Source of the DNA: a virus
DNA length: 64,000 nucleotides
IMG/VR virus record: IMGVR_UViG_3300012209_000008
Coordinates: 2,026 to 66,025 of that record
Reading direction: 5' to 3' (one strand)
Shown here: positions 3,027-51,721 of the stretch, one piece after another
Position numbering within the stretch: the first letter of the stretch is position 1
How the letters are laid out: every line of letters begins with the position of its first letter
Made by a program: the position numbers and the translations under genes
Notes under the pieces: generated by a model
Databases searched by the model: none
What the model was told of the DNA's origin: nothing
The model's input: the letters and a program-made list of their open reading frames with translations, nothing else

Positions 3027-3208
3027 GGTGCCTCCCTGAAGCCGCGGATGGCTTGGAGGACGGCCTGACGGTGGGCCGGACTCCCGCGCGCTACCCGGTA
3101 CAACTCCCAGATCCGATCCCGCAGGGCCTGGGGCACCTGGAACCAGTGGGTCGGGCAAAAGATGCGCCCCATCGCGATCTGGATGTGACAGATTGGACAC
3201 CGGTTCAT
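3023..3208 (-). CDS. small Cys/His (Zn-finger-like) phage protein
   Basis: MNRCPICH...FCPTHWFQVPQALRDRIW. Overlaps both neighbours by 4 nt. Confidence 0.65.
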   Translation of the reverse strand: MNRCPICHIQIAMGRIFCPTHWFQVPQALRDRIWELYRVARGSPAHRQAVLQAIRGFREAP

Positions 3209-3813
3209 ACGTTCTCCAAGAGCACTTCTACCCGCGGGTTGGCCGGGTCCAGATACAACCGAGAGCCATCCCAGCTGACCAGCCACTTGTCATCCTCGAT
3301 CACCTCCCGGACTTGCAACAGATCGGCCAGCCCCTGGTAATAGCCCACCGCGTCCCCCGGGCCGTCCACATCCCGAAAGAAGTAGGCTCGACAGTTGAAC
3401 TCCACCGGCGGCGCCGTCCGACCATCCCACTTCAGCTCCGCCGTCTCACACCACCGGGTCCAGGCCGCGCTCGGGATGTGCACCTTGTGATGGCCCCGCT
3501 GGACCACGGCGCCGTGGTTCTTTTTGGTGCGGGGCGCCCCCAGCACCGTCACCCGGATCCGCAGGGGCCGTTCCGGACTCACCCAGGCCTCCGCGGGAAG
3601 CGTACTCGTGACCACCGTCTCGCCGTTAACCTGACGCACACTGAACACCCCCAAGGGGAAGCGCATGGCCGGGGATTGGGCCGCGGCCTCTGGCGACGCG
3701 AACCGCGCCGCCTCCGCCAGCTTGGCCGTGGTCATCGGGCCGATCCCCGTCATCTTGGCGAACCAGAGCCGCTTGCCCTGGTACCGTTGCGCAGACTCCA
3801 ACACCCAGTCCAT
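3205..3813 (-). CDS. RusA-like Holliday junction resolvase with N-terminal extension
   Basis: GAPRTKKNH...AYFFRDVDGPGDAVGYYQGLADLLQ...IEDDKWL...PRVEV fits the RusA fold pattern. Confidence 0.65.
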   Translation of the reverse strand: MDWVLESAQRYQGKRLWFAKMTGIGPMTTAKLAEAARFASPEAAAQSPAMRFPLGVFSVRQVNGETVVTSTLPAEAWVSPERPLRIRVTVLGAPRTKKNHGAVVQRGHHKVHIPSAAWTRWCETAELKWDGRTAPPVEFNCRAYFFRDVDGPGDAVGYYQGLADLLQVREVIEDDKWLVSWDGSRLYLDPANPRVEVLLENV

Positions 3814-4043
3814 CAGCGCAGCTTGGGGTCAATGCGGATCTGGGCCCCGTCCGCGGTCCGCGCGTCGTCCAGGTACTCCGGCCCATACACGTGGCCGCCG
3901 GTCCGGATCCCAAAGTTCGGCTCCACGCAGCGGCACCGGGCATAGTGCTTGTCGCAGGTCCGGCACCACTTGAACGCTACATATGTGCTGTCGGAGGCTT
4001 GGCGCAACCGGGCGTCGGCGTCGGCACAGCCGCACTGGGCCAC
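3813..4043 (-). CDS. Cys-rich hypothetical protein
   Basis: CGC, CRTC and CRC motifs; GGGAGG SD. Confidence 0.55.
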   Translation of the reverse strand: MAQCGCADADARLRQASDSTYVAFKWCRTCDKHYARCRCVEPNFGIRTGGHVYGPEYLDDARTADGAQIRIDPKLR

Positions 4044-4099: not shown

Positions 4100-5857
4100 T
4101 CAGAAAGTGTCTCCTGGTCCTTGCGGGTGATCCAGCAGCTCATCCCACGGCTCCACCCGCAGAAACAAGCTCCGGTCCACCACACTACTCTTGTAGCGAT
4201 GTTTCCCGATATGAATCCCCATCAACCCCGGCACAAGCACCTCGGCCAATGGCATCCGAGCCGCGCGCACCGCGGCCAGTTGTTCCTTCTCCACCCCTGG
4301 TCGGAGCACCTTGTGGAGCATCAGAATCAGGTCCGGCTCCTCCTCCAACGCGCCAGACTGTTTCAGGGCTGTAGTCGGCGGTGGACTCACGAGTGCCAAC
4401 GGCCCTGCTTCTCGCGGGGGACGGTTCGCTTGCGCGGTGAGAAGAATGGTGAGGTGATGTTCCTTGGCCAACTCCTTGGCCCGGCGGACGGTCTCCGTGA
4501 CAGCAGCGGTCAGGTTCCCATTCCCATTGTCCTCGCCGAAGTTCATTCTGAGGATATGATCCAGAATCACAAAACGAAACCCCCACTGGGCAGCTTGTGC
4601 CACATGGGCGGCAAATTGATCGGGCGTCACCCGACCCTGTTCCACAAAGTACAATTGCCCGTGATACCGCTCCCGGAGCCCGCTCACGGCCGCGCTGAGG
4701 CGCGCGGCGATATCTTCCGGCGCCAACTGAAGTTCTTGTGCAAGCCAACTCAGCTCATTCTCCAAGAGCCGAACCGGCGGAATATGTAAGGCCAAGGCAG
4801 CCAAGCGCAGCCACGCCTCCTCTGGCGGCATCTCTGTGGTCAACGCATAGATCCCCCAGCCATGGCTCGCCCAATGAGTAATGCAGTTCATTACGAAGGT
4901 GGTCTTGCCCAAGCCGGGGCGGGCGCCTAACACCACCATCATCGTGCGCCGCAGTTTGCCAAGGGTGGCGTCCAACGTTTTCCACGGCCAGACCGCCAAC
5001 TCCGTCGCGGGCTGGTCGCGGAGCGCATTGGCCCTGGCAATTTGATCCGCCGTAATGCGGTCCCGATCCGCCGCCGATAAGCCGAGCGATCCAGCCTCGG
5101 CGAGGAGTTGCGCCGCCAAATGCTGGTAGACGGGCCCGTGCACAGGCTGATACCGTGCCACATTGGCGGCGATGGCCTGGACCTCCCCCTCCGGCAACGG
5201 TGGGCGGCAGCGCCGCTGGTTTACTGCAAGCAGCGCGATAGCAATCTCCTCCTGTTCCATTCCGCGACGCCGCATGGACCCGGCCAAACTCGTCAACGTG
5301 GTATTGCGTTCGCCGGGAGGGAGCGGCTCGCCCGAGGCCAGCACTACGGGCTCTAGTGTCCCACCGTTCCGGAGCCGCCCAACGATCCCAGCCGGGACAG
5401 AGAGCGCGTCGCTCGTCTTACCGCGCCACCGGTAGACCGTCCCACTGGGATGAATCGACGGGGGCATAATCACATACCCTGCATCGCCCCGGACATCCAC
5501 ATGCGGCGCGAGTACCCGGTTCGCGATGGACCCGCCACCAGGGTGCTGGAACCACAGATGCTGGCCGCGCGCTGTCAGAACCCGGAGCGTCGGAATGGCC
5601 AAGAGTCCCAGACGTTCGGCGGCCACAGTGCCCTCAGCCCCATCCAGATCAAACACCAGATGCCCTGTGCGCCCGGGCACCGCCGCAATGTTGTATTGAG
5701 GGTTCTCCTGCCACCAGCGCTGCACTTGCACTAGATCAGTCGTGGCATCCTTGAAGCCGTTCGGCGTGGCTGGTTCCTTTCCGTGGGCCCGGAGCGGGAA
5801 GATGGGCCAGCCCCGTTGGGCATAGGCAGCTGCGGCGGCTGCCAGATCAATCGACAT
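4100..5857 (-). CDS. primase-helicase: Prim-Pol + PriCT-1 + DnaB-like SF4 helicase
   Basis: N-terminal YAQRGWPIFPL...WWQENPQYNIA...VFDLD...GQHLWF...VDVRGDAGYVIMPPSIHPSG. PPGERNTTL (PriCT). Walker A GARPGLGKTT, VILDHI, LTAQANR and GALEEEPDLILMLH. Confidence 0.92.
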   Translation of the reverse strand: MSIDLAAAAAAYAQRGWPIFPLRAHGKEPATPNGFKDATTDLVQVQRWWQENPQYNIAAVPGRTGHLVFDLDGAEGTVAAERLGLLAIPTLRVLTARGQHLWFQHPGGGSIANRVLAPHVDVRGDAGYVIMPPSIHPSGTVYRWRGKTSDALSVPAGIVGRLRNGGTLEPVVLASGEPLPPGERNTTLTSLAGSMRRRGMEQEEIAIALLAVNQRRCRPPLPEGEVQAIAANVARYQPVHGPVYQHLAAQLLAEAGSLGLSAADRDRITADQIARANALRDQPATELAVWPWKTLDATLGKLRRTMMVVLGARPGLGKTTFVMNCITHWASHGWGIYALTTEMPPEEAWLRLAALALHIPPVRLLENELSWLAQELQLAPEDIAARLSAAVSGLRERYHGQLYFVEQGRVTPDQFAAHVAQAAQWGFRFVILDHILRMNFGEDNGNGNLTAAVTETVRRAKELAKEHHLTILLTAQANRPPREAGPLALVSPPPTTALKQSGALEEEPDLILMLHKVLRPGVEKEQLAAVRAARMPLAEVLVPGLMGIHIGKHRYKSSVVDRSLFLRVEPWDELLDHPQGPGDTF

Positions 5858-8316: not shown

Positions 8317-8531
8317 TGGAGGTGGACCCGCTTAGCAAGCGCCGGGGTCGCCCGCTGGAGCACCAGCGTCGTCCCGTTGGCAGTGATCGTCAAGGAATAG
8401 AAGGCCGTATCGCCCGGGCGCAGCCCGGTCAGGGTCAGGAGCCGTTGGTGCGCGGGCCGCGATTCCGCTTGGAAATCCACCTGACACCCGGTCAGCACAA
8501 CCAGGCTCATCACGACGGTCAACATCTTCAC
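8313..8531 (-). CDS. small lipoprotein
   Basis: MKMLTVVMSLVVLTGC lipobox; GGAGG SD before the GTG. Confidence 0.6.
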   Translation of the reverse strand: MKMLTVVMSLVVLTGCQVDFQAESRPAHQRLLTLTGLRPGDTAFYSLTITANGTTLVLQRATPALAKRVHLQ

Positions 8532-8743
8532 AAATGGTCCTCCCATGTGGGCTCTCCCTGTCGCAGCCATCCGCCCGGGAACCCGCCGCAACGTCCAGCA
8601 GGTCGGCGCCCCTCTCGGAGCGGGCCAGCGTGGTGATGGCTTTGAAGCAACGTTCCGTCCTCTGCGCTCAGCGTAGGTCAGCGTCGAAAGCGTTCCGCGT
8701 TCCGGTGGCTGGGGCCCAGCCTCAGCGTGTAATGGGTGCCCCG

Positions 8744-8874
8744 TTGGGTTGCAGACCCAAGTGCCTTAGCGTTAGGCGATAGGCTCGGTTTCGTGGTGAG
8801 CCTAGGCGGAGTTGAACCGCCATCCCTCGTCGTGTGTGACGCTGCGTTCTCCCGCTTCGCGACCGAAAAGCCCC
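8744..8874 (-). ncRNA. tRNA-like structured RNA, possibly circularly permuted
   Basis: Minus strand order: T-arm GGCGG-TTCAACT-CCGCC; 7-bp TAGGCTC/GAGCCTA stem closed by an 11-nt loop containing ACCA; D-like arm GCC/GGC; TTGGG-TCTGCAA-CCCAA hairpin. Confidence 0.5.
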
Positions 8875-8890
8875 TCCTGGGTGGTGTGCG

Positions 8891-9442
8891 CTACAGTCCC
8901 GGCAACACCGTGGTGGCGTTCTTGAGGCTCAGCTGACCGTCCAGCGCGCCCAAGACCGCCTCCAGGTGTTCAATCTCCTGGGCCAACACCTGCTCCTCAA
9001 TGTTCACCACGACGTCCTGTGGCTTGGGGGCGGTCCCCGCCACGGCGACGGCGGAGACCACCGCGACGCCCTTGGCCAGCGCCTCCCGCCGCACCTGCTC
9101 AATGCGGACGCGAAGTCCGTTGAGGTACGTCCCGCGCTTGGGCGCCACTTCCCGGCGCCAGGTCAGCCAGTCCTGGAGGGAGCGCGTATCCCCGTTCACC
9201 GTCACCAGCGTGGCGGCGTTGGCCGCGAGGATGGCCCGGCGGATGGCGATGAGCCGGTCCTCCAGGTCCCCCATGGCCTGCTCCTCGGCCTTGATGTACG
9301 CGGCGGAGCCACCCTCGGCCACGATGGGATCCTTGAAGTATTCCTGGCGCGCCAGGTACTGGGTGATGGTTTCGCGCTTCTTGGCCAGCCGCTTGTCGAT
9401 GGTCTTGACCTCGGCGAGCGCTTCCGTGATCGTCAGCGACAT
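8891..9442 (-). CDS. DIP1984/DUF6847-like coiled-coil protein
   Basis: MSLTITEALAEVKTIDKRL...RLIAIRRAILAANAAT...LDGQLSLKNATT matches the family pattern. Confidence 0.6.
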   Translation of the reverse strand: MSLTITEALAEVKTIDKRLAKKRETITQYLARQEYFKDPIVAEGGSAAYIKAEEQAMGDLEDRLIAIRRAILAANAATLVTVNGDTRSLQDWLTWRREVAPKRGTYLNGLRVRIEQVRREALAKGVAVVSAVAVAGTAPKPQDVVVNIEEQVLAQEIEHLEAVLGALDGQLSLKNATTVLPGL

Positions 9443-9469
9443 TCCCTTTTCTCTCCTCTCAGGAAAACC

Positions 9470-9788
9470 TTACCGTGCCCCGCCATACCGCACCAAGCCT
9501 CGCCCGACCTCACCGCACCCGGCCGGACCCTGCCTCGCCCAGCCCGACCCACGCCTTACCCCTAACCACGCCCGACCGCACCGGACCTGACCATACCAAG
9601 CCCCGCCCGAGCTGACCGGACCAGAACCCTGCCATACCACACCCGACCGTGCCTTGCCCCGCCCAGCCGGACCACGCCCTACCACACCCTACCACACCGC
9701 GCCCTGCCTAGCCTTACCACACCGTACGATACCATGCCGCACCCGGCCGGACCAAGCCCAACCCTGCCTAGCCTTGCTCAACCCAGCC
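9470..9788 (-). repeat. GGY-NN pentamer array A (63 units)
   Basis: The plus strand parses as consecutive NN-RCC units (ttacc gtgcc ccgcc atacc gcacc aagcc...). 3 imperfect units; phase shifts at 9550-9567 and 9623-9628. Confidence 0.95.
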
Positions 9789-9794
9789 TCAGAT

Positions 9795-10439
9795 CTACTC
9801 CGTCAACAACTTGAACCCCGCCACGGTGAAGCGACCATAGGTGGGCCGATGATCGCAGAGCCCGGCAATGAGTCCCGCGGAGTTGGCCAGCTTGGTCAGC
9901 AGCTCCGGCGTCACGTAGTGGGGCAGCGTCACCAGGACGATGAAGCTGAGGCGCCAACCCTCCTTGAGGGCTGGACGGACCCGGGTGATGCCTTGCCGCT
10001 GCACCGGCGCCCGTCGCTTGTCCTCGTAGTCCCACTCCTTGCGCCGCGGCTCAAACGGGGCCACGTCATCCAGGGGAATGATGGCGGCCTTGACCAGATC
10101 CCGGAGCGACTTGCGCGGGCTCCGCGGGTCGCTCTCATAGCGGGCCGCCTCTTGGAGTGCCGCGGTGAAGTTCATCCCCGGCACGCCCAGGGTCCCGTCC
10201 GTCATCCGGTACACGTAGGACTCCAGGTTGTCGGTTTTCTTGGCCTTGCTCCCTTTGGCCGACGCGCCCTTCTCCTTCACCGCTTCCACGTCCCAGCGGT
10301 GGAAGAGGATCGGGGCCACGCCCACCACGGAGATCCGCGCGCGATAGGGCTGTTGCAGCGCCACGGCCTCCTTCCCACCGTTGTCCGTTTGCTTCGCATC
10401 GAGTCCGATGCGCTCAGTCGCTCCTGCGGGCGCTTTCAT
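9795..10439 (-). CDS. stand-alone Cas7/RAMP-superfamily protein (Vipr-like), 214 aa
   Basis: RISVVGVAPILFHR (first RRM strand), GTLGVPGMNFTAALQEAA (RAMP P-x-helix), VRPALKEGWRLSFIV and the C-terminal Gly-rich loop AGLIAGLCDHRPTYGRF. ATG at 10439 has a GAGG SD; the upstream 63 codons in the track are array sequence. Confidence 0.8.
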   Translation of the reverse strand: MKAPAGATERIGLDAKQTDNGGKEAVALQQPYRARISVVGVAPILFHRWDVEAVKEKGASAKGSKAKKTDNLESYVYRMTDGTLGVPGMNFTAALQEAARYESDPRSPRKSLRDLVKAAIIPLDDVAPFEPRRKEWDYEDKRRAPVQRQGITRVRPALKEGWRLSFIVLVTLPHYVTPELLTKLANSAGLIAGLCDHRPTYGRFTVAGFKLLTE

Positions 10440-10464
10440 GGAAACCTCTTTCAAAGGAGAAGGG

Positions 10465-10920
10465 ATACCACACCTGGCCTCGCCCCACCTCACCACACCT
10501 AACCAAACCTGGACGCACCAGACCCTGCCATGCCAAACCGAACCACGCCGAACCGGACCCGGCCTTGCCACGCCGCACCGAACCCCACCACACCCAACCT
10601 TACCACGCCGTGCCGAACCGAGCCGCACCTTGCCTAACCCTACCCTGCCTGACCAGGACCTGCCGCGCCATACCGCGCCGTACCCTACCTGACCGGACCG
10701 TGCCTTGCCAGACCAAACCTGAACCCACCGTGACAGGACCGACCGAACCTAGCCACACCGCACCACGCCGAACCTCACCCCACCTTGCCCCACCGGACCA
10801 TACCCGAGCACACCACGCCCGAGCCAGGCCACGCCTCACCATACCGCGCCGTACCCAACCTGGCCTTGCCCCGCCGCACCGTACCACACCAAGCCACGGC
10901 TCGCCTCACCGCGCCGCGCT
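10465..10920 (-). repeat. GGY-NN pentamer array B (91 units)
   Basis: NN-RCC units keep the 5-nt phase from 10465 to 10819 (71 units), shift +1 at 10820-10825, then run 19 more units. 8 imperfect units. Confidence 0.95.
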
Positions 10921-11927
10921 CAGAATGGTAAATCATCATCCTCCGCCTCTAGGATGAGAGCATCACGCCGCTGCTGTTCTGCTTTCAGAAGCTCCACCAC
11001 CGGTCGCCACACGGCTGGTCGTTTGACCTTGGTGGTGAGTGCCAGGATCATCGCCTGCAAGCGGTCTGGCGGAATCTCGCGAACGCTTTTTCCGGACCAA
11101 CCCTTCAATGCCTTGGCGCGTGGTAAGAATGGTCCAAGGGTTCGATCCTCCTGCTCTTGCTTCGGGGGCTGGCGCTCACTCGGGGGCGCAGCCGCCTCGC
11201 CCGGATCCGCTTCCTCCGCCGTGGTAAAAATCTCGTCCGCGGCTGTGGCCACGATCACCGCTTGGACAAAGGCCCGCTTCCCAGCCCGCGCCACCACGTC
11301 ATTGAGCGCCGCACGCCAGTCCGGTTTGGTCTTGACGCGACTCTCTCCTTGCTCATCCTTCTCAATCACCGCGCCATACTTGCGCTGGGTCCAAATACTC
11401 CGGAACCCGGCCTCGGCGGTGGAGCAGCTGCCGACGGCGGAGCCGACCTGGCGCCGATAGTTGTCCAGCAACGTCACCTCCACCGTCTGGCTCACGAAGT
11501 CCGCCGTCTCCGTCCCGCCCACCAGCTTGGTCTCGCCTTTGGCGTAGCGGAACAGCTGGGCGAGCTTCTCGCCGCCGCGCTTGGTGAGGGCCTTCTGCTT
11601 GCTCCCGGGCACGACGTAGTAGTCATGGAGCTTGCCTGGGGCGGGAGCGCCCTTGCTGTCGTACTCCGCTTCTTGGAGGTACTCACGGACAAACTTGAGC
11701 AGCGTGTCCCGCTGAATCTTCCACCAGGCCAGTTGCTTCTCCAGATCCAGCGGCCGCTCCAGCATCGCGGCTTCTAGCGCCAGCCCGCGCGGCACAGCCG
11801 TCTGCGACTGCTGATCCCAGACGTGTCCCGTCGGCACCAAGCCCTGGGCCTGCGCGGCGGCGGCATCCAACAGTGCCTTCACCTCGGCCTGTGCTGAAGG
11901 CTTCTCAGTAACGGTCTTGTTGGTCAC
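10920..11927 (-). CDS. putative single-strand annealing / recombination protein
   Basis: KALTKRGGEKLAQLF...GSAVGSCSTAE...NDVVARAGKRAFVQAVIVATAADEIFT and an acidic DDDLPF tail. GTG at 11927 with a GAGGAGG SD. Confidence 0.7.
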   Translation of the reverse strand: MTNKTVTEKPSAQAEVKALLDAAAAQAQGLVPTGHVWDQQSQTAVPRGLALEAAMLERPLDLEKQLAWWKIQRDTLLKFVREYLQEAEYDSKGAPAPGKLHDYYVVPGSKQKALTKRGGEKLAQLFRYAKGETKLVGGTETADFVSQTVEVTLLDNYRRQVGSAVGSCSTAEAGFRSIWTQRKYGAVIEKDEQGESRVKTKPDWRAALNDVVARAGKRAFVQAVIVATAADEIFTTAEEADPGEAAAPPSERQPPKQEQEDRTLGPFLPRAKALKGWSGKSVREIPPDRLQAMILALTTKVKRPAVWRPVVELLKAEQQRRDALILEAEDDDLPF

Positions 11928-11942
11928 GCTCCTCCTCTGGTT

Positions 11943-11997
11943 GGGCCGAACCAAACCACGCCACGCCACACCAAGCCGAACCCGGCCTCACCGCGCC
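11943..11997 (-). repeat. GGY-NN pentamer array C (11 units)
   Basis: gggcc gaacc aaacc acgcc acgcc acacc aagcc gaacc cggcc tcacc gcgcc, all perfect NN-RCC, intergenic. Confidence 0.9.
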
Positions 11998-12009
11998 GCA
12001 GGTTAGGCT

Positions 12010-12246
12010 TCACGCGGCCTTCACTCCCAAGCGCTGAAGCGTCTGCGCCTCCAACCGCTCTCGGAGTTCTCCAACGTACTGCGTGCGCCGCGTCTCCGGG
12101 AGGACGCGCAGAGCCCGCGCTGCCAACCGGCGGCAGCGCGCGGAATGAAACTGGCGCTTGCGGCCACGCCGCGCCGGATCCTCCTGAAACGTCACGGCGC
12201 ACCCGGGCCGCGCACAGCAGAGGCCAGACACGAGACCATGAGGCAT
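12010..12246 (-). CDS. small Cys/His protein (CxxxxC...HxxxC), possible DNA-binding regulator
   Basis: LCCARPGCAVTF...RKRQFHSARCRR; AAGGAGG SD. Confidence 0.55.
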   Translation of the reverse strand: MPHGLVSGLCCARPGCAVTFQEDPARRGRKRQFHSARCRRLAARALRVLPETRRTQYVGELRERLEAQTLQRLGVKAA

Positions 12247-12353
12247 AGGCGCAACGGACCTCCTTGGGGCGCTCCCCCGGAGGGGCACCTTGGCCCGTCC
12301 GGTCCCTCTACGTTACTATAGAAGGGGCGCGGAACGGTAGGGGTCGTAAATTG

Positions 12354-12373
12354 TGTAATATGTTGATATTACA
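12354..12373. promoter_or_regulatory. perfect 8-bp inverted repeat in AT-rich divergent control region
   Basis: TGTAATAT-GTTG-ATATTACA inside the only markedly AT-rich intergenic patch (about 12310-12460), between divergent gene blocks. Confidence 0.55.
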
Positions 12374-12868
12374 TATGCTTTAGACCTTTAGGCTTAGGTA
12401 GGGAGTCCCCTAAGCTATGGCCTCCCTTTACTTTCCATTGCTTCCCTATTACCTTCTATTCGGTGACCGGATTGGCCCCGGGTAGCCTAACCTCCCGCGG
12501 AAGCTCTCATTAGCCAGTCCCGTCCCTAGGGGGATGGCAGCAGTGCCGCAGCGGGGCTGGCCCCGCAAGACCTCCGATCCATAGCGCGAAGCGAACGTAC
12601 CGACCCCGCAGACGGCGTGTTGCTCACTCAAGGGCTCTGGCTCCGGCTATCCCGCAGGCAGCGCTGGACAAGCGAAGGGGAATGGACCCCAGGCGGCGTC
12701 GGTCTCAGATGGTCAGCGGCGGAGTACCAGTCCACAGCCGCGGTCCGAGGGAACACTCGCGCGAACGATCAATGGCCATAGAGGCCGGGGTGCAGATCCC
12801 GGAGCCTCCCAGCAGTGGGGTGCAAGGTCCCCGCGTTGGCCTTCCTCTTCTACGTCTGTAGTGCTCTC

Positions 12869-50903: not shown

Positions 50904-51287
50904 TCACAGTGGCGGCTCCCGCACGTCGTAGATCCACTGCCGCGCAATCTCACAGAGGGCCACAAACACCGCGTCCTTGTCCCGCTCTAACTGACCCAGC
51001 TTCGCGTAGGGCACCATGTCCGGATGGGTCTTGGCCGCGGGGTCGTACCGCTCCCCATAGTTCCACCCCATGCCGAAGTAGGCCTGCATCCAGCTCCCGT
51101 GCAACTCCTCTGGGGACCGGGAGCGCTGGTCGCCCATCTGTCGCTCGATGACGGCGCGGAACTGTACCTTGAAGGGCTCCTCGCGCTCCACCCAGGACGG
51201 CGGGACAATGGGCACCGCCGCCGCTTGGGCCGCCAGCCGGGCTGTCTCGTAGACGAAGACTGCGCGCCGCTCCAAGAGGTTCACCAT
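50904..51287 (-). CDS. RyR-domain protein
   Basis: ELHGSWMQAYFGMGWNYGERYDPAAKTHPDMVPYAKLGQLERDKD. Confidence 0.85.
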   Translation of the reverse strand: MVNLLERRAVFVYETARLAAQAAAVPIVPPSWVEREEPFKVQFRAVIERQMGDQRSRSPEELHGSWMQAYFGMGWNYGERYDPAAKTHPDMVPYAKLGQLERDKDAVFVALCEIARQWIYDVREPPL

Positions 51288-51721
51288 CAGCTGGTCCGGT
51301 TCACGCCGCGGCTATCGCAGCTACCAGCGCTGGAATCCCCGCTCCGGAAGGGCGGGAGCCCGGTGGCGTCCGGGACAAGTGTGCGCCCCAACGCGGGGGG
51401 CAGATGCTGCCGCAGGACCTGGAGCGCGGCCCACAACCGGCCATCCCGCTCCGCCACGGCCCGCGCCAGCGTGTCCTCCACCCAGTCCCCGTGGTTCCCG
51501 CTCGCGGTGGTCCGGTTGCGCCCCCGGGAATCGCAGCTGCCCGCCGCGCCATCCGCGGCCCGGAACGGCGCCAGCCCCGTCACCGTCGGCACCGTCTGGG
51601 CGGCCACTGCCGGGGGCGTGGCGCGGCTGATAGCTTGGAGCGCGGCCCAGAGCCGTCCATCGCGCTCCGTCAGCGCACGGTCCAGCGCGTCATCGAGCAC
51701 CTGTTGGATGGTGGCCATCAA
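51287..51721 (-). CDS. two-repeat hypothetical protein A
   Basis: Two copies of AL/AV-x-ERDGRLWAALQ...GL-x-PFR-x-x-D-x-x-AGSCDSRG-x-NRT. Confidence 0.7.
   Translation of the reverse strand: MMATIQQVLDDALDRALTERDGRLWAALQAISRATPPAVAAQTVPTVTGLAPFRAADGAAGSCDSRGRNRTTASGNHGDWVEDTLARAVAERDGRLWAALQVLRQHLPPALGRTLVPDATGLPPFRSGDSSAGSCDSRGVNRTS

What the first reader, a model, noticed from the sequence alone, without database searches (positions are those of the whole stretch)
10465..10920. Array B holds a strict 5-nt phase and is punctuated by imperfect units that may mark guide boundaries
Seen: phase is kept for 71 units even through degenerate units (tggac 10510, aggac 10655, tgaac/gtgac/aggac 10720-10739, cgagc 10805). 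There is a single +1 shift (10820-10825). Perfect runs are about 9, 28, 12, 13 and 14 units. Array A shows the same pattern, with runs of about 16, 8, 19 and 9 units. The NN sequence is non-repetitive, unlike a slippage microsatellite. Inference: selection on periodicity plus information-bearing NN; the breaks may separate individual guides of roughly 25-80 nt target length.
Basis: partly seen in the sequence, partly recalled or inferred. Interest (0 to 1): 0.65.

Follow-up and report, generated by a model that had tools for sequence, protein, structure and literature searches.

The report
Phage VIPR guide-RNA arrays, unpunctuated
The 5-base repeat tract is a real guide-RNA array of a phage VIPR system (a CRISPR-like DNA silencer first described in 2026), but its imperfect repeats look like tolerated point mutations inside guides, not markers between guides.

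Summary
Observation confirmed. On the minus strand, array B (10465-10915) is 90 units of GGYNN. 71 units share one register, a single extra G follows at 10820, then 19 more units. Arrays A (9465-9788) and C (11943-11997) are of the same kind. A six-unit GGY pattern has 93 matches in the window against 0 in shuffles.

The arrays flank a 214-aa gene (9795-10439, minus) that is a Vipr protein. Its family profile hits PDB 36pp "SUSP1 Vipr protein" (E 4e-14), the GG/Y-binding residues are conserved, and the fold is Cas7/Csm3-like. This is a VIPR locus (bioRxiv 10.64898/2026.04.26.720920), a known kind. This scan has already met VIPR loci in at least eight other genomes.

The "information-bearing NN" reading is supported. 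The "breaks mark guide boundaries" reading is not. I decoded arrays of related phages with the published two-read-one-skipped rule and found real guide-target pairs, mostly in rival phages' vipr genes.
- Footprints of 9-16 units run through imperfect units, whose NN match the target at 62 of 62 positions.
- 7 of 18 footprint borders lie inside perfect runs.
- Close relatives show imperfect units arising by point mutation with NN unchanged.

No natural target was found for the window's own guides. The only lead is a 22/26 near-match to the phage's own primase gene.

The parts
10465..10915 (-). Array B: 90 GGYNN units. 19 units (10821-10915), one extra G at 10820 (+1 register shift), then 71 units (10465-10819). 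83 units are perfect GGY and 7 are imperfect but in phase (minus strand: gccgt, gctcg, gtcct, gtcac, gttca, gtcct, gtcca). It starts 4 nt after the stop codon of the 335-aa gene and ends about 25 nt before the vipr start codon.
9795..10439 (-). vipr gene, 214 aa: a RAMP/Cas7-like protein. The G-loop reads GLCDHRPTYGRF. H47, R155, D196, H197 and R198 align with SUSP1 Vipr H17, R138, D177, W178 and R179.
   Evidence: The profile of 115 homologs hits PDB 36pp_D 'SUSP1 Vipr protein' at E 4.1e-14. The AF2 model has pLDDT 92. Foldseek's top hits are type VII Cas7 and Csm3. phrog_4652.
9465..9788 (-). Array A: 64 GGYNN units in four registers: 33 units (9624-9788), 12 (9563-9622), 2 (9551-9560) and 17 (9465-9549). 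3 units are imperfect (agcaa, cgtac, gctcg). It begins 6 nt after the vipr stop codon and ends at the ribosome-binding site of the next gene.
11943..11997 (-). Array C: 11 perfect GGYNN units, the size of a single guide, lying between the 78-aa gene and the 335-aa gene. It shares its first 15 nt with the start of array B.
10920..11927 (-). 335-aa gene between arrays C and B. Function unknown (phrog_10048, no Pfam hit, no PDB relative). It is not conserved next to vipr in 87 related loci, so its status as an accessory (vap) gene is unproven.
12010..12246 (-). 78-aa gene, the first gene called in this minus-strand run, upstream of array C. No family match.
8891..9442 (-). 183-aa gene directly downstream of array A (phrog_1491, labelled tail fiber). 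It is not conserved next to vipr in relatives.
5544..5582 (+). Candidate near-self target. The first 13 units of array A (9724-9788), decoded as NNx, match this site at 22/26 (18/20 over the first 10 units). The site lies in the Prim-Pol motif VLTARGQHLWFQH of the primase/helicase gene 4100-5857 (minus). The skipped base falls on the codon wobble position.
   Evidence: (0 of 60 shuffles reach 18/20)

Best explanation
Arrays A, B and C are the guide-RNA (vrRNA) arrays of a phage-borne VIPR system, and the 214-aa gene between A and B is its Vipr protein.

Proposed mechanism. The order 78-aa gene, array C, 335-aa gene, array B, vipr, array A, 183-aa gene, all on the minus strand, is shown. That they are made as one transcript is inferred. 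By homology with SUSP1 Vipr, one Vipr protomer should bind each 5-nt unit. It would hold G1 (H47, D196), G2 (R155, H197) and, in the next protomer's pocket, Y3. This would build a helical filament that exposes each NN pair. The NN pairs read double-stranded DNA two bases at a time with one base skipped, and binding silences the target.

In this Vipr clade the arrays have no conserved 3' tail. Guides of about 9-16 units abut head to tail in one register.

The imperfect units are ordinary units that have lost one constant base, mostly the second G. They keep the register, stay inside guides and still contribute their NN to target reading. They are not separators. By length, array B probably holds 6-8 guides, array A about 5 and array C one. 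The sequence itself does not reveal where they begin and end.

Shown here: the protein homology, the association of arrays with vipr, the skip rule within the clade, and footprints that cross imperfect units in relatives. Inferred: expression, filament formation and silencing in this phage, and the identity of its targets.
For: Vipr identity:
- The profile hits PDB 36pp SUSP1 Vipr at E 4.1e-14, with the G-loop, thumb Arg and strand His conserved.
- The confident model (pLDDT 92) is most similar to Cas7/Csm3.

Association of arrays with vipr:
- 403 IMG/VR contigs encode relatives.
- In about 65 of 80 fetched loci, period-5 GG arrays flank the gene on its own strand. Only 2 of 80 show one on the other strand.

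Grammar: position 3 is a pyrimidine in 155 of 155 GG units, and NN is near-uniform and non-repetitive. This matches the published vrRNA grammar (10.64898/2026.04.26.720920).

Skip rule, tested in 18 whole phage genomes of the clade:
- 10-unit windows scoring at least 18/20: 25 hits with one skipped base, 2 with none, 0 with two, and 0, 10, 1, 0 in four shuffles.
- 9-unit windows scoring at least 17/18: 34 hits, against 3-8 in shuffles.
- Hits cluster on conserved motifs of other phages' vipr genes (KKTD..ESYVY, TRxRPA..GW, G-loop). The paper reports this target class.

Imperfect units lie inside guides:
- L080 guide units 13-24, with 3 internal imperfect units and one more at its 3' edge, match six vipr genes at 17/18 to 23/24.
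- The 17-unit G013 guide, with 2 imperfect units, matches at 29/32.
- Overall, NN of imperfect units match at 62/62 positions.

Borders inside perfect runs: G018 (match begins between GGCAT and GGTTA), G015 (units 1-13 of a 25-unit perfect run) and L057.

Origin by point mutation: tgctg against GGCTG and tgcta against GGTTA in the near-identical arrays L013, L014 and L016.
Against: - Nothing here shows that the RNA is made, processed or bound by Vipr in this phage.
- No natural target was found for the window's own guides in 87 related loci, 17 related genomes, IMG/VR seed scans or one scan of prokaryote genomes.
- The footprint evidence comes from relatives whose Vipr is only 46-60% identical to the window's. 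For L081, at 77% the closest relative with arrays in hand, there are only two single hits, which may be chance.
- The confident set is small, about seven independent guides. The false-discovery rate for single hits is about 15-20%.
- 4 of 18 footprint borders do touch an imperfect unit. The window's one candidate footprint (array A units 1-13) ends exactly on the imperfect unit cgtac. Some role at borders therefore cannot be excluded.
- The published type II vrRNAs have a structured 3' tail, which is absent here. In SUSP1, replacing GGY abolished silencing (legend of fig. S12).
Confidence: 0.75

Rival explanations
1. Imperfect units are deliberate punctuation: Vipr cannot bind them, the filament breaks there, and nucleases cut the long transcript into one guide per perfect run.
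For: - In SUSP1, replacing GGY abolished silencing (10.64898/2026.04.26.720920, legend of fig. S12).
- Several perfect runs in array B (9, 12, 13, 15 units) are guide-sized.
- The window's only candidate footprint ends on the imperfect unit cgtac.
- 4 of 18 footprint borders in relatives touch an imperfect unit.
Against: - Footprints in relatives cross imperfect units, with 62/62 NN positions matching.
- 7 of 18 borders lie in perfect runs.
- Array B also has runs of 1, 2, 3 and 28 units.
- In L081, imperfect units are 1-7 units apart.
- Imperfect units arise by point mutation within otherwise identical guides.
- Across 177 unique array segments, perfect-run lengths fall steadily with no peak at 9-16, although the array caller biases this distribution.
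Confidence: 0.1
2. Register shifts (the +1 at 10820; the +1, +2 and +1 shifts in array A) and array ends are the true physical borders of filaments. Long in-phase stretches then work as single multi-guide filaments without further cutting.
For: - A filament with one protomer per 5 nt cannot run through an extra base without a bulge. This is an inference from 10.64898/2026.04.26.720927.
- Segments between shifts are often guide-sized: 11, 12, 17 and 19 units in the window, and a median of 13 across 177 segments.
- 7 of 18 footprint borders fall at segment ends.
Against: - In-phase segments of 33, 71 and up to 116 units exist.
- Footprints start and stop inside such segments, so shifts cannot be the only borders.
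- No footprint next to a shift was available to test the idea.
Confidence: 0.3
3. The tract has nothing to do with guides. It could be a G-rich structural or regulatory leader: (GGNNN)n two-layer G-quadruplexes in the mRNA, a C-rich Rho-loading site on the antisense RNA, or a periodic protein-binding site like the TRAP site, any of which might control translation of the downstream gene.
For: - The arrays abut ribosome-binding sites.
- GG spaced every 5 nt could in principle form G-quadruplexes (established knowledge).
Against: - The absolute pyrimidine at position 3 (155/155) is not needed for quadruplexes.
- The arrays co-occur on the same strand with a Vipr homolog in most of the 80 fetched loci, out of 403 IMG/VR contigs that encode a relative.
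- Decoded NN strings match real genes under the one-skip rule only.
Confidence: 0.03
4. The arrays are partly decayed. The imperfect units and register shifts mark dead stretches that no longer work.
For: - No target was found for any window guide.
- 10 of 165 units are imperfect, and there are four register shifts.
Against: - Decay would hit all three constant positions and would break the register. Here 9 of the 10 imperfect units have lost only one of the two G (7 the second G, 2 the first), and the tenth (gccgt) has lost the second G and the pyrimidine. All ten stay in phase.
- Clade-wide, 58% of imperfect units are G2 substitutions.
- Imperfect units inside confirmed guides decode perfectly.
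Confidence: 0.07

Closest known systems
VIPR systems (Viral Interference Programmable Repeat): Vipr protein plus GGY/NN vrRNAs. The reference system is type II of Escherichia phage SUSP1 (bioRxiv 10.64898/2026.04.26.720920 and 10.64898/2026.04.26.720927; PDB 36pp).
   Same: - A small RAMP protein with conserved G-loop, thumb Arg and strand His.
- GGYNN pentamer repeats on the gene's strand, on both sides of the gene.
- Carried by a phage.
- The one-skipped-base reading rule holds in this protein clade.
- Rival vipr genes are among the clade's targets.
   Different: - There is no conserved 3' tail or pseudoknot after each 9-16-unit guide.
- Arrays are continuous (11, 64 and 90 units here, up to 116 units in phase in relatives). 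They fill whole gaps between protein genes lying on the same strand.
- The aromatic G-loop residue is His or Phe instead of Trp.
- No accessory gene is conserved beside vipr.
- The protein is a distant relative of SUSP1 Vipr, detectable only with a profile.
'Staggered vrRNA arrays' (fig. S18 of 10.64898/2026.04.26.720920)
   Same: [quoted passage not shown] That fits guides that abut without spacers.
   Different: Only the legend could be read. The paper says only the hammerhead and single-vrRNA architectures were confirmed by small-RNA sequencing. Whether this locus is of that architecture is untested.
CRISPR class 1 Cas7 backbone filaments (Csm3, type VII Cas7)
   Same: Same fold (Foldseek probability 1.00, TM about 0.5). 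Both are periodic protein-RNA filaments in which a thumb flips out bases at a fixed spacing.
   Different: - The period is 5 nt with 3 bases sequestered, not 6 nt with 1 flipped.
- There are no CRISPR repeats, no Cas6, no adaptation genes and no other cas genes in the locus.
TRAP (trp RNA-binding attenuation protein) binding site, (G/U)AG-NN x 11
   Same: A 5-nt periodic RNA motif with a constant triplet and two free bases, read by an oligomeric protein.
   Different: This is an analogy only. TRAP's spacer bases carry no information. Its protein is unrelated, and its site has 11 units, not up to 90.

Membership tests
VIPR system | A Vipr protein: a small stand-alone RAMP with an RRM core, a glycine-rich loop and a thumb | tested here: met
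   Profile against PDB 36pp 'SUSP1 Vipr protein': E 4.1e-14 over residues 33-209. AF2 model pLDDT 92. Foldseek's best hits are Cas7/Csm3 at E 4e-7.
VIPR system | Residues that hold G1, G2 and Y3 (SUSP1 H17, D177, R138, W178, R179) | tested here: met
   They align with H47, D196, R155, H197 and R198. H47, R155, D196 and R198 are invariant in 115 homologs. The aromatic position is Phe in the consensus and His in the window.
VIPR system | Tandem GGY/NN (YNNGG) pentanucleotide repeats next to vipr, with constant GGY and hypervariable NN | tested here: met
   165 units in three arrays. Position 3 is 100% pyrimidine in the 155 GG units. NN is near-uniform and non-repetitive. The same-strand association holds in about 65 of 80 related loci.
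VIPR system | Each vrRNA has 9-16 repeats followed by a conserved structured 3' tail (type II architecture) | tested here: not met
   There is no non-repeat tail inside or after the arrays. No Rfam family, including hammerhead, is found in 8500-12700. The arrays are continuous. The paper allows other architectures (staggered, ribozyme-spaced, single), so this fails the type II layout, not the family.
VIPR system | NN read against dsDNA with one skipped base per unit, the skip usually on the codon wobble position | tested here: met
   Met for the Vipr clade: 25 hits at 18/20 or better with one skipped base, against 2 and 0 for no or two skipped bases, and 34 hits against 3-8 in shuffles. Inconclusive for the window's own guides: there is one 22/26 near-self match in wobble phase.
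VIPR system | A linked accessory (vap) gene | tested here: inconclusive
   The neighbours (335 aa, 183 aa, 78 aa) have no Pfam or PDB relatives. None is conserved beside vipr in 87 loci.
VIPR system | Carried by a virus or provirus | tested here: met
   The window lies in a 68,387-bp virus record. Neighbouring genes match phage protein families, including primase/helicase.
VIPR system | vrRNAs are expressed, co-purify with Vipr and silence targets | not testable with these tools
   This needs small-RNA sequencing, pull-down and reporter assays.

The most novel reading that the evidence does not exclude
In this tail-less Vipr clade the long in-phase arrays (71 units here, up to 116 in relatives) are not cut into discrete guides. 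One continuous Vipr-RNA filament carries several abutting guides, any stretch of about 9-16 units can engage a target, and units lacking the second G are tolerated or even used as flexible points. That would be a multi-guide effector with no processing step, unlike both CRISPR and the published type II VIPR.
Probability: 0.2. Interest if true: 0.6.

Novelty: new member of a known kind. Interest (0 to 1): 0.35.

Why it matters
The VIPR class was published in 2026, so the locus itself is a new member rather than a discovery.

What this check adds is a rule for annotating such arrays. In this large soil-phage Vipr clade (403 IMG/VR contigs, about 2,700 proteins), guides cannot be delimited by looking for imperfect repeats. 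Imperfect units still decode, and guide borders are invisible in the sequence. Target prediction should therefore slide windows across whole arrays, imperfect units included.

It also raises a testable question. These tail-less arrays embedded between protein genes must either be measured out into guides in some way, or not be cut at all.

Tried and rejected
Searches for natural targets of the window's own guides gave nothing convincing:
- 87 related loci: no hit at 18/20 or better.
- 87 vipr genes: 2 hits at 16/20, below the shuffle mean of 5.
- 17 whole related phage genomes: only the self hit.
- IMG/VR exact seeds from array A units 1-10 and 3-10, array C units 3-10, and the 3' ends of arrays B and A. 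The best extensions (L172 family 19/22, L204 25/30) are at the expected chance level and do not lie in wobble-phase open frames.
- The one exact 10-unit hit in prokaryote genomes lies in a cytochrome-c-like gene, where about one chance hit is expected.

Other steps that led nowhere:
- A search for Prim-Pol homologs carrying the peptide decoded from array A found only consensus-level agreement, best 10 of 13 residues.
- There is no general excess of near-self matches in the phage's own genome.
- The single-sequence structure prediction was useless (pLDDT 36). The alignment-based one worked.
- A single-protein scan of IMG/VR found no relatives. The alignment-based scan found 403.
- The perfect-run length distribution is biased by my array callers, so I give it little weight.
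The 74-80% identical Vipr relatives (P0002-P0011) could therefore not be examined with their flanks, apart from the two short metagenome contigs L081 and L082.
- The paper's supplementary tables are not held, so the VIPR type of this clade could not be assigned.

Full report
**1. The observation**

Array B is real and is as described. Read on the minus strand it is a run of GGYNN units.
- 19 units lie at 10915-10821, one extra G at 10820, and 71 units in a single register at 10819-10465.
- Seven units are imperfect but keep the register: gccgt, gctcg, gtcct, gtcac, gttca, gtcct and gtcca.
- Arrays A (9788-9465, 64 units in four registers) and C (11997-11943, 11 units) have the same grammar.
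- In 155 GG units, the third base is C 65 times, T 90 times and never a purine. Positions 4 and 5 are near-uniform.
- A six-unit GGY pattern occurs 93 times, only on the minus strand and only in these arrays, against 0 in 100 shuffles.
- The NN string has no internal repeats beyond chance.

**2. What it is**

All three arrays fill gaps between minus-strand genes. The order is: 78-aa gene, array C, 335-aa gene, array B, 214-aa gene, array A, 183-aa gene. That led me to three 2026 preprints.

VIPR systems consist of a small RAMP protein (Vipr) and RNAs built from GGY/NN pentamers. One protomer binds each unit and hides GGY. The NN pairs read double-stranded DNA with one base skipped per unit.

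I tested membership rather than assuming it.
- A profile of 115 homologs of the 214-aa protein hits PDB 36pp 'SUSP1 Vipr protein' at E 4.1e-14. The G-loop (GLCDHRPTYGRF against GVGDWRPRFGRF), the thumb Arg and the strand His align.
- The alignment-based model is confident (pLDDT 92). Its nearest solved folds are type VII Cas7 and Csm3.
- The family is large: 2,685 proteins in the search and 403 IMG/VR contigs.
- In about 65 of 80 fetched loci, period-5 GG arrays flank the gene on its own strand. Only 2 of 80 have one on the other strand.

The locus is a VIPR system. It differs from the type II reference in three ways. It has no 3' tail and no Rfam element. Its arrays are continuous and lie between protein genes on the same strand. 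No accessory gene is conserved beside vipr. Relatives L046, L056 and L068 also have arrays of 60-150 units.

**3. Testing 'breaks mark guide boundaries'**

The window's own guides gave no usable targets (see section 5). I therefore looked for real guide-target pairs in the clade.

I fetched 17 whole related phage records, called their arrays, and scanned every 10-unit window against all 18 genomes, the window's own included, with the arrays masked.
- With one skipped base there were 25 hits at 18/20 or better. With no skip there were 2, with two skips 0, and in four shuffles 0, 10, 1 and 0.
- Adding the remaining loci, and using 9-unit windows at 17/18 or better, gave 34 hits against 3-8 in shuffles.

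This confirms the one-skip rule independently for this clade.

Most hits fall in other phages' vipr genes, on the most conserved motifs:
- The last 11 units of a G018 array are the antisense of KK(T/S)D..ESYVY and match the vipr gene of G005, G007, G012, L027, L050 and L081 at 21/22.
- G015 units 1-13 read the thumb motif, up to 24/26.
- L080 units 13-24 read KTD..ESYVYR in six phages, up to 23/24.
- A 17-unit G013 array matches G010 at 29/32.

These footprints answer the question.
- Imperfect units lie inside footprints: 3 internal in L080 plus one at its 3' edge, 2 in G013, and 1-2 in the L013, L014 and L016 family. Their NN match the target at 62 of 62 positions, against 510 of 546 for perfect units.
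- Of 18 footprint borders, 7 lie inside perfect runs. In G018, for example, the match starts between GGCAT and GGTTA. Another 7 lie at segment ends and 4 touch an imperfect unit. With 8-15% imperfect units, that is no more than chance.
- In L081, whose Vipr is 77% identical to the window's, imperfect units come every 1-7 units.
- The near-identical arrays L013, L014 and L016 differ by point changes that turn a perfect unit into an imperfect one with NN unchanged: GGCTG to tgctg, and GGTTA to tgcta.

Across 177 unique array segments, 7.6% of units are imperfect. Of these, 58% have lost only the second G, 20% have a purine at position 3, and 18% have lost the first G. In the window, seven of the ten imperfect units are G-Y-Y-N-N (second G lost, pyrimidine kept), two (agcaa, cgtac) have lost the first G, and one (gccgt) has lost both the second G and the pyrimidine.

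So imperfect units are mutated but still decoding units inside guides. Guides of about 9-16 units abut without any visible mark.

The caveats are as follows. The confident set is about seven independent guides from relatives at 46-60% Vipr identity. Single hits carry a false-discovery rate of roughly 15-20%. RNA ends were not measured.

**4. What could mark borders instead**

Register shifts cannot be crossed by a filament with a strict 5-nt step. Segments between shifts are often guide-sized: 11, 12, 17 and 19 units here, and a clade median of 13. But in-phase segments of 33, 71 and up to 116 units also exist, and footprints begin and end inside them.

Either an unknown measuring step cuts these segments, or the long filament is used uncut. 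The paper's 'staggered arrays' legend (fig. S18) may describe the same layout. According to the text, that architecture was not among those confirmed by small-RNA sequencing.

**5. Targets of the window's own guides**

None was established. The one lead is that array A units 1-13 (9788-9724) match the phage's own primase/helicase gene.
- The match at 5544-5582 is 22/26, and 18/20 over the first ten units. 0 of 60 shuffles reach 18.
- The skipped base falls on the wobble position.
- The site lies in the Prim-Pol motif VLTARGQHLWFQH.
- The guide decodes to V[IM][IM]ARG[KN][HQ]LY[FL][HQ][HQ]. At the position where the phage's own gene has Trp, this carries the family-consensus Tyr.

This would fit a guide aimed at a rival's primase that the phage's own gene escapes. 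However, no database sequence matches better than the own gene does, so it remains a lead only. This candidate footprint includes the imperfect unit agcaa, whose NN matches. It ends on the imperfect unit cgtac.

**6. Verdict**

NN is information-bearing and the periodicity is selected. The imperfect units are not guide separators.
- The system is a new member of a kind published in 2026, and this scan has met it in at least eight other genomes.
- Interest is modest. The useful products are an annotation rule (decode straight through imperfect units and slide windows across the whole array) and an open question about how tail-less arrays are measured into guides.

Noticed in passing
window 5544-5582 (+), inside gene 4100-5857 (-): The first 13 units of array A decode to a 22/26 near-match of the phage's own Prim-Pol motif, in wobble phase. 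At the position where the own gene has Trp, the guide spells the family-consensus Tyr. It may be a guide against rival primases that the phage's own gene escapes.
   Followed up: partly
L056 (=G018) 3795-3933; L046 (=G015) 3118-3190; L080 segment 1; L002 (=G001) segment 4: Guides in related phages spell conserved Vipr motifs (KKTD..ESYVY, TRxRPA..GW, G-loop) and match the vipr genes of several other phages at 21/22 to 24/26. On the window's own vipr they would match 18/22, 19/24, 17/26 and 16/20.
   Followed up: yes
G001 about 51037-51340 (+); G022 about 25462, 82565 and 1340: These related phage genomes carry extra GGYNN arrays tens of kb from their vipr gene, some on the other strand. They look like dispersed or solo arrays within a VIPR-positive phage.
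   Followed up: no
L009, L011, L012, L013, L014, L016 (3' ends of the downstream arrays): In this subclade the arrays end in a conserved in-phase motif, GGCAG GGCTC GGATT GGCGT. It may be a tail-like cap written in the repeat register. The window's arrays lack it.
   Followed up: no
window 10901-10917 and 11983-11999 (minus strand): Arrays B and C begin with the same 15 nt (GCGGCGCGGTGAGGC) and share 28 of 34 bases. This suggests a duplicated first guide or a common array leader.
   Followed up: partly
window 10920-11927 (-), 8891-9442 (-), 12010-12246 (-): The three genes interleaved with the arrays have no Pfam or PDB relatives and are not found beside vipr in 87 related loci. The earlier 'SSAP-like' label for the 335-aa gene found no support in the searches run here.
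   Followed up: partly
window 12250-12480: A comparatively AT-rich gap upstream of the minus-strand genes may hold their promoter. The consensus scan found no sigma-70-like site on the minus strand.
   Followed up: no
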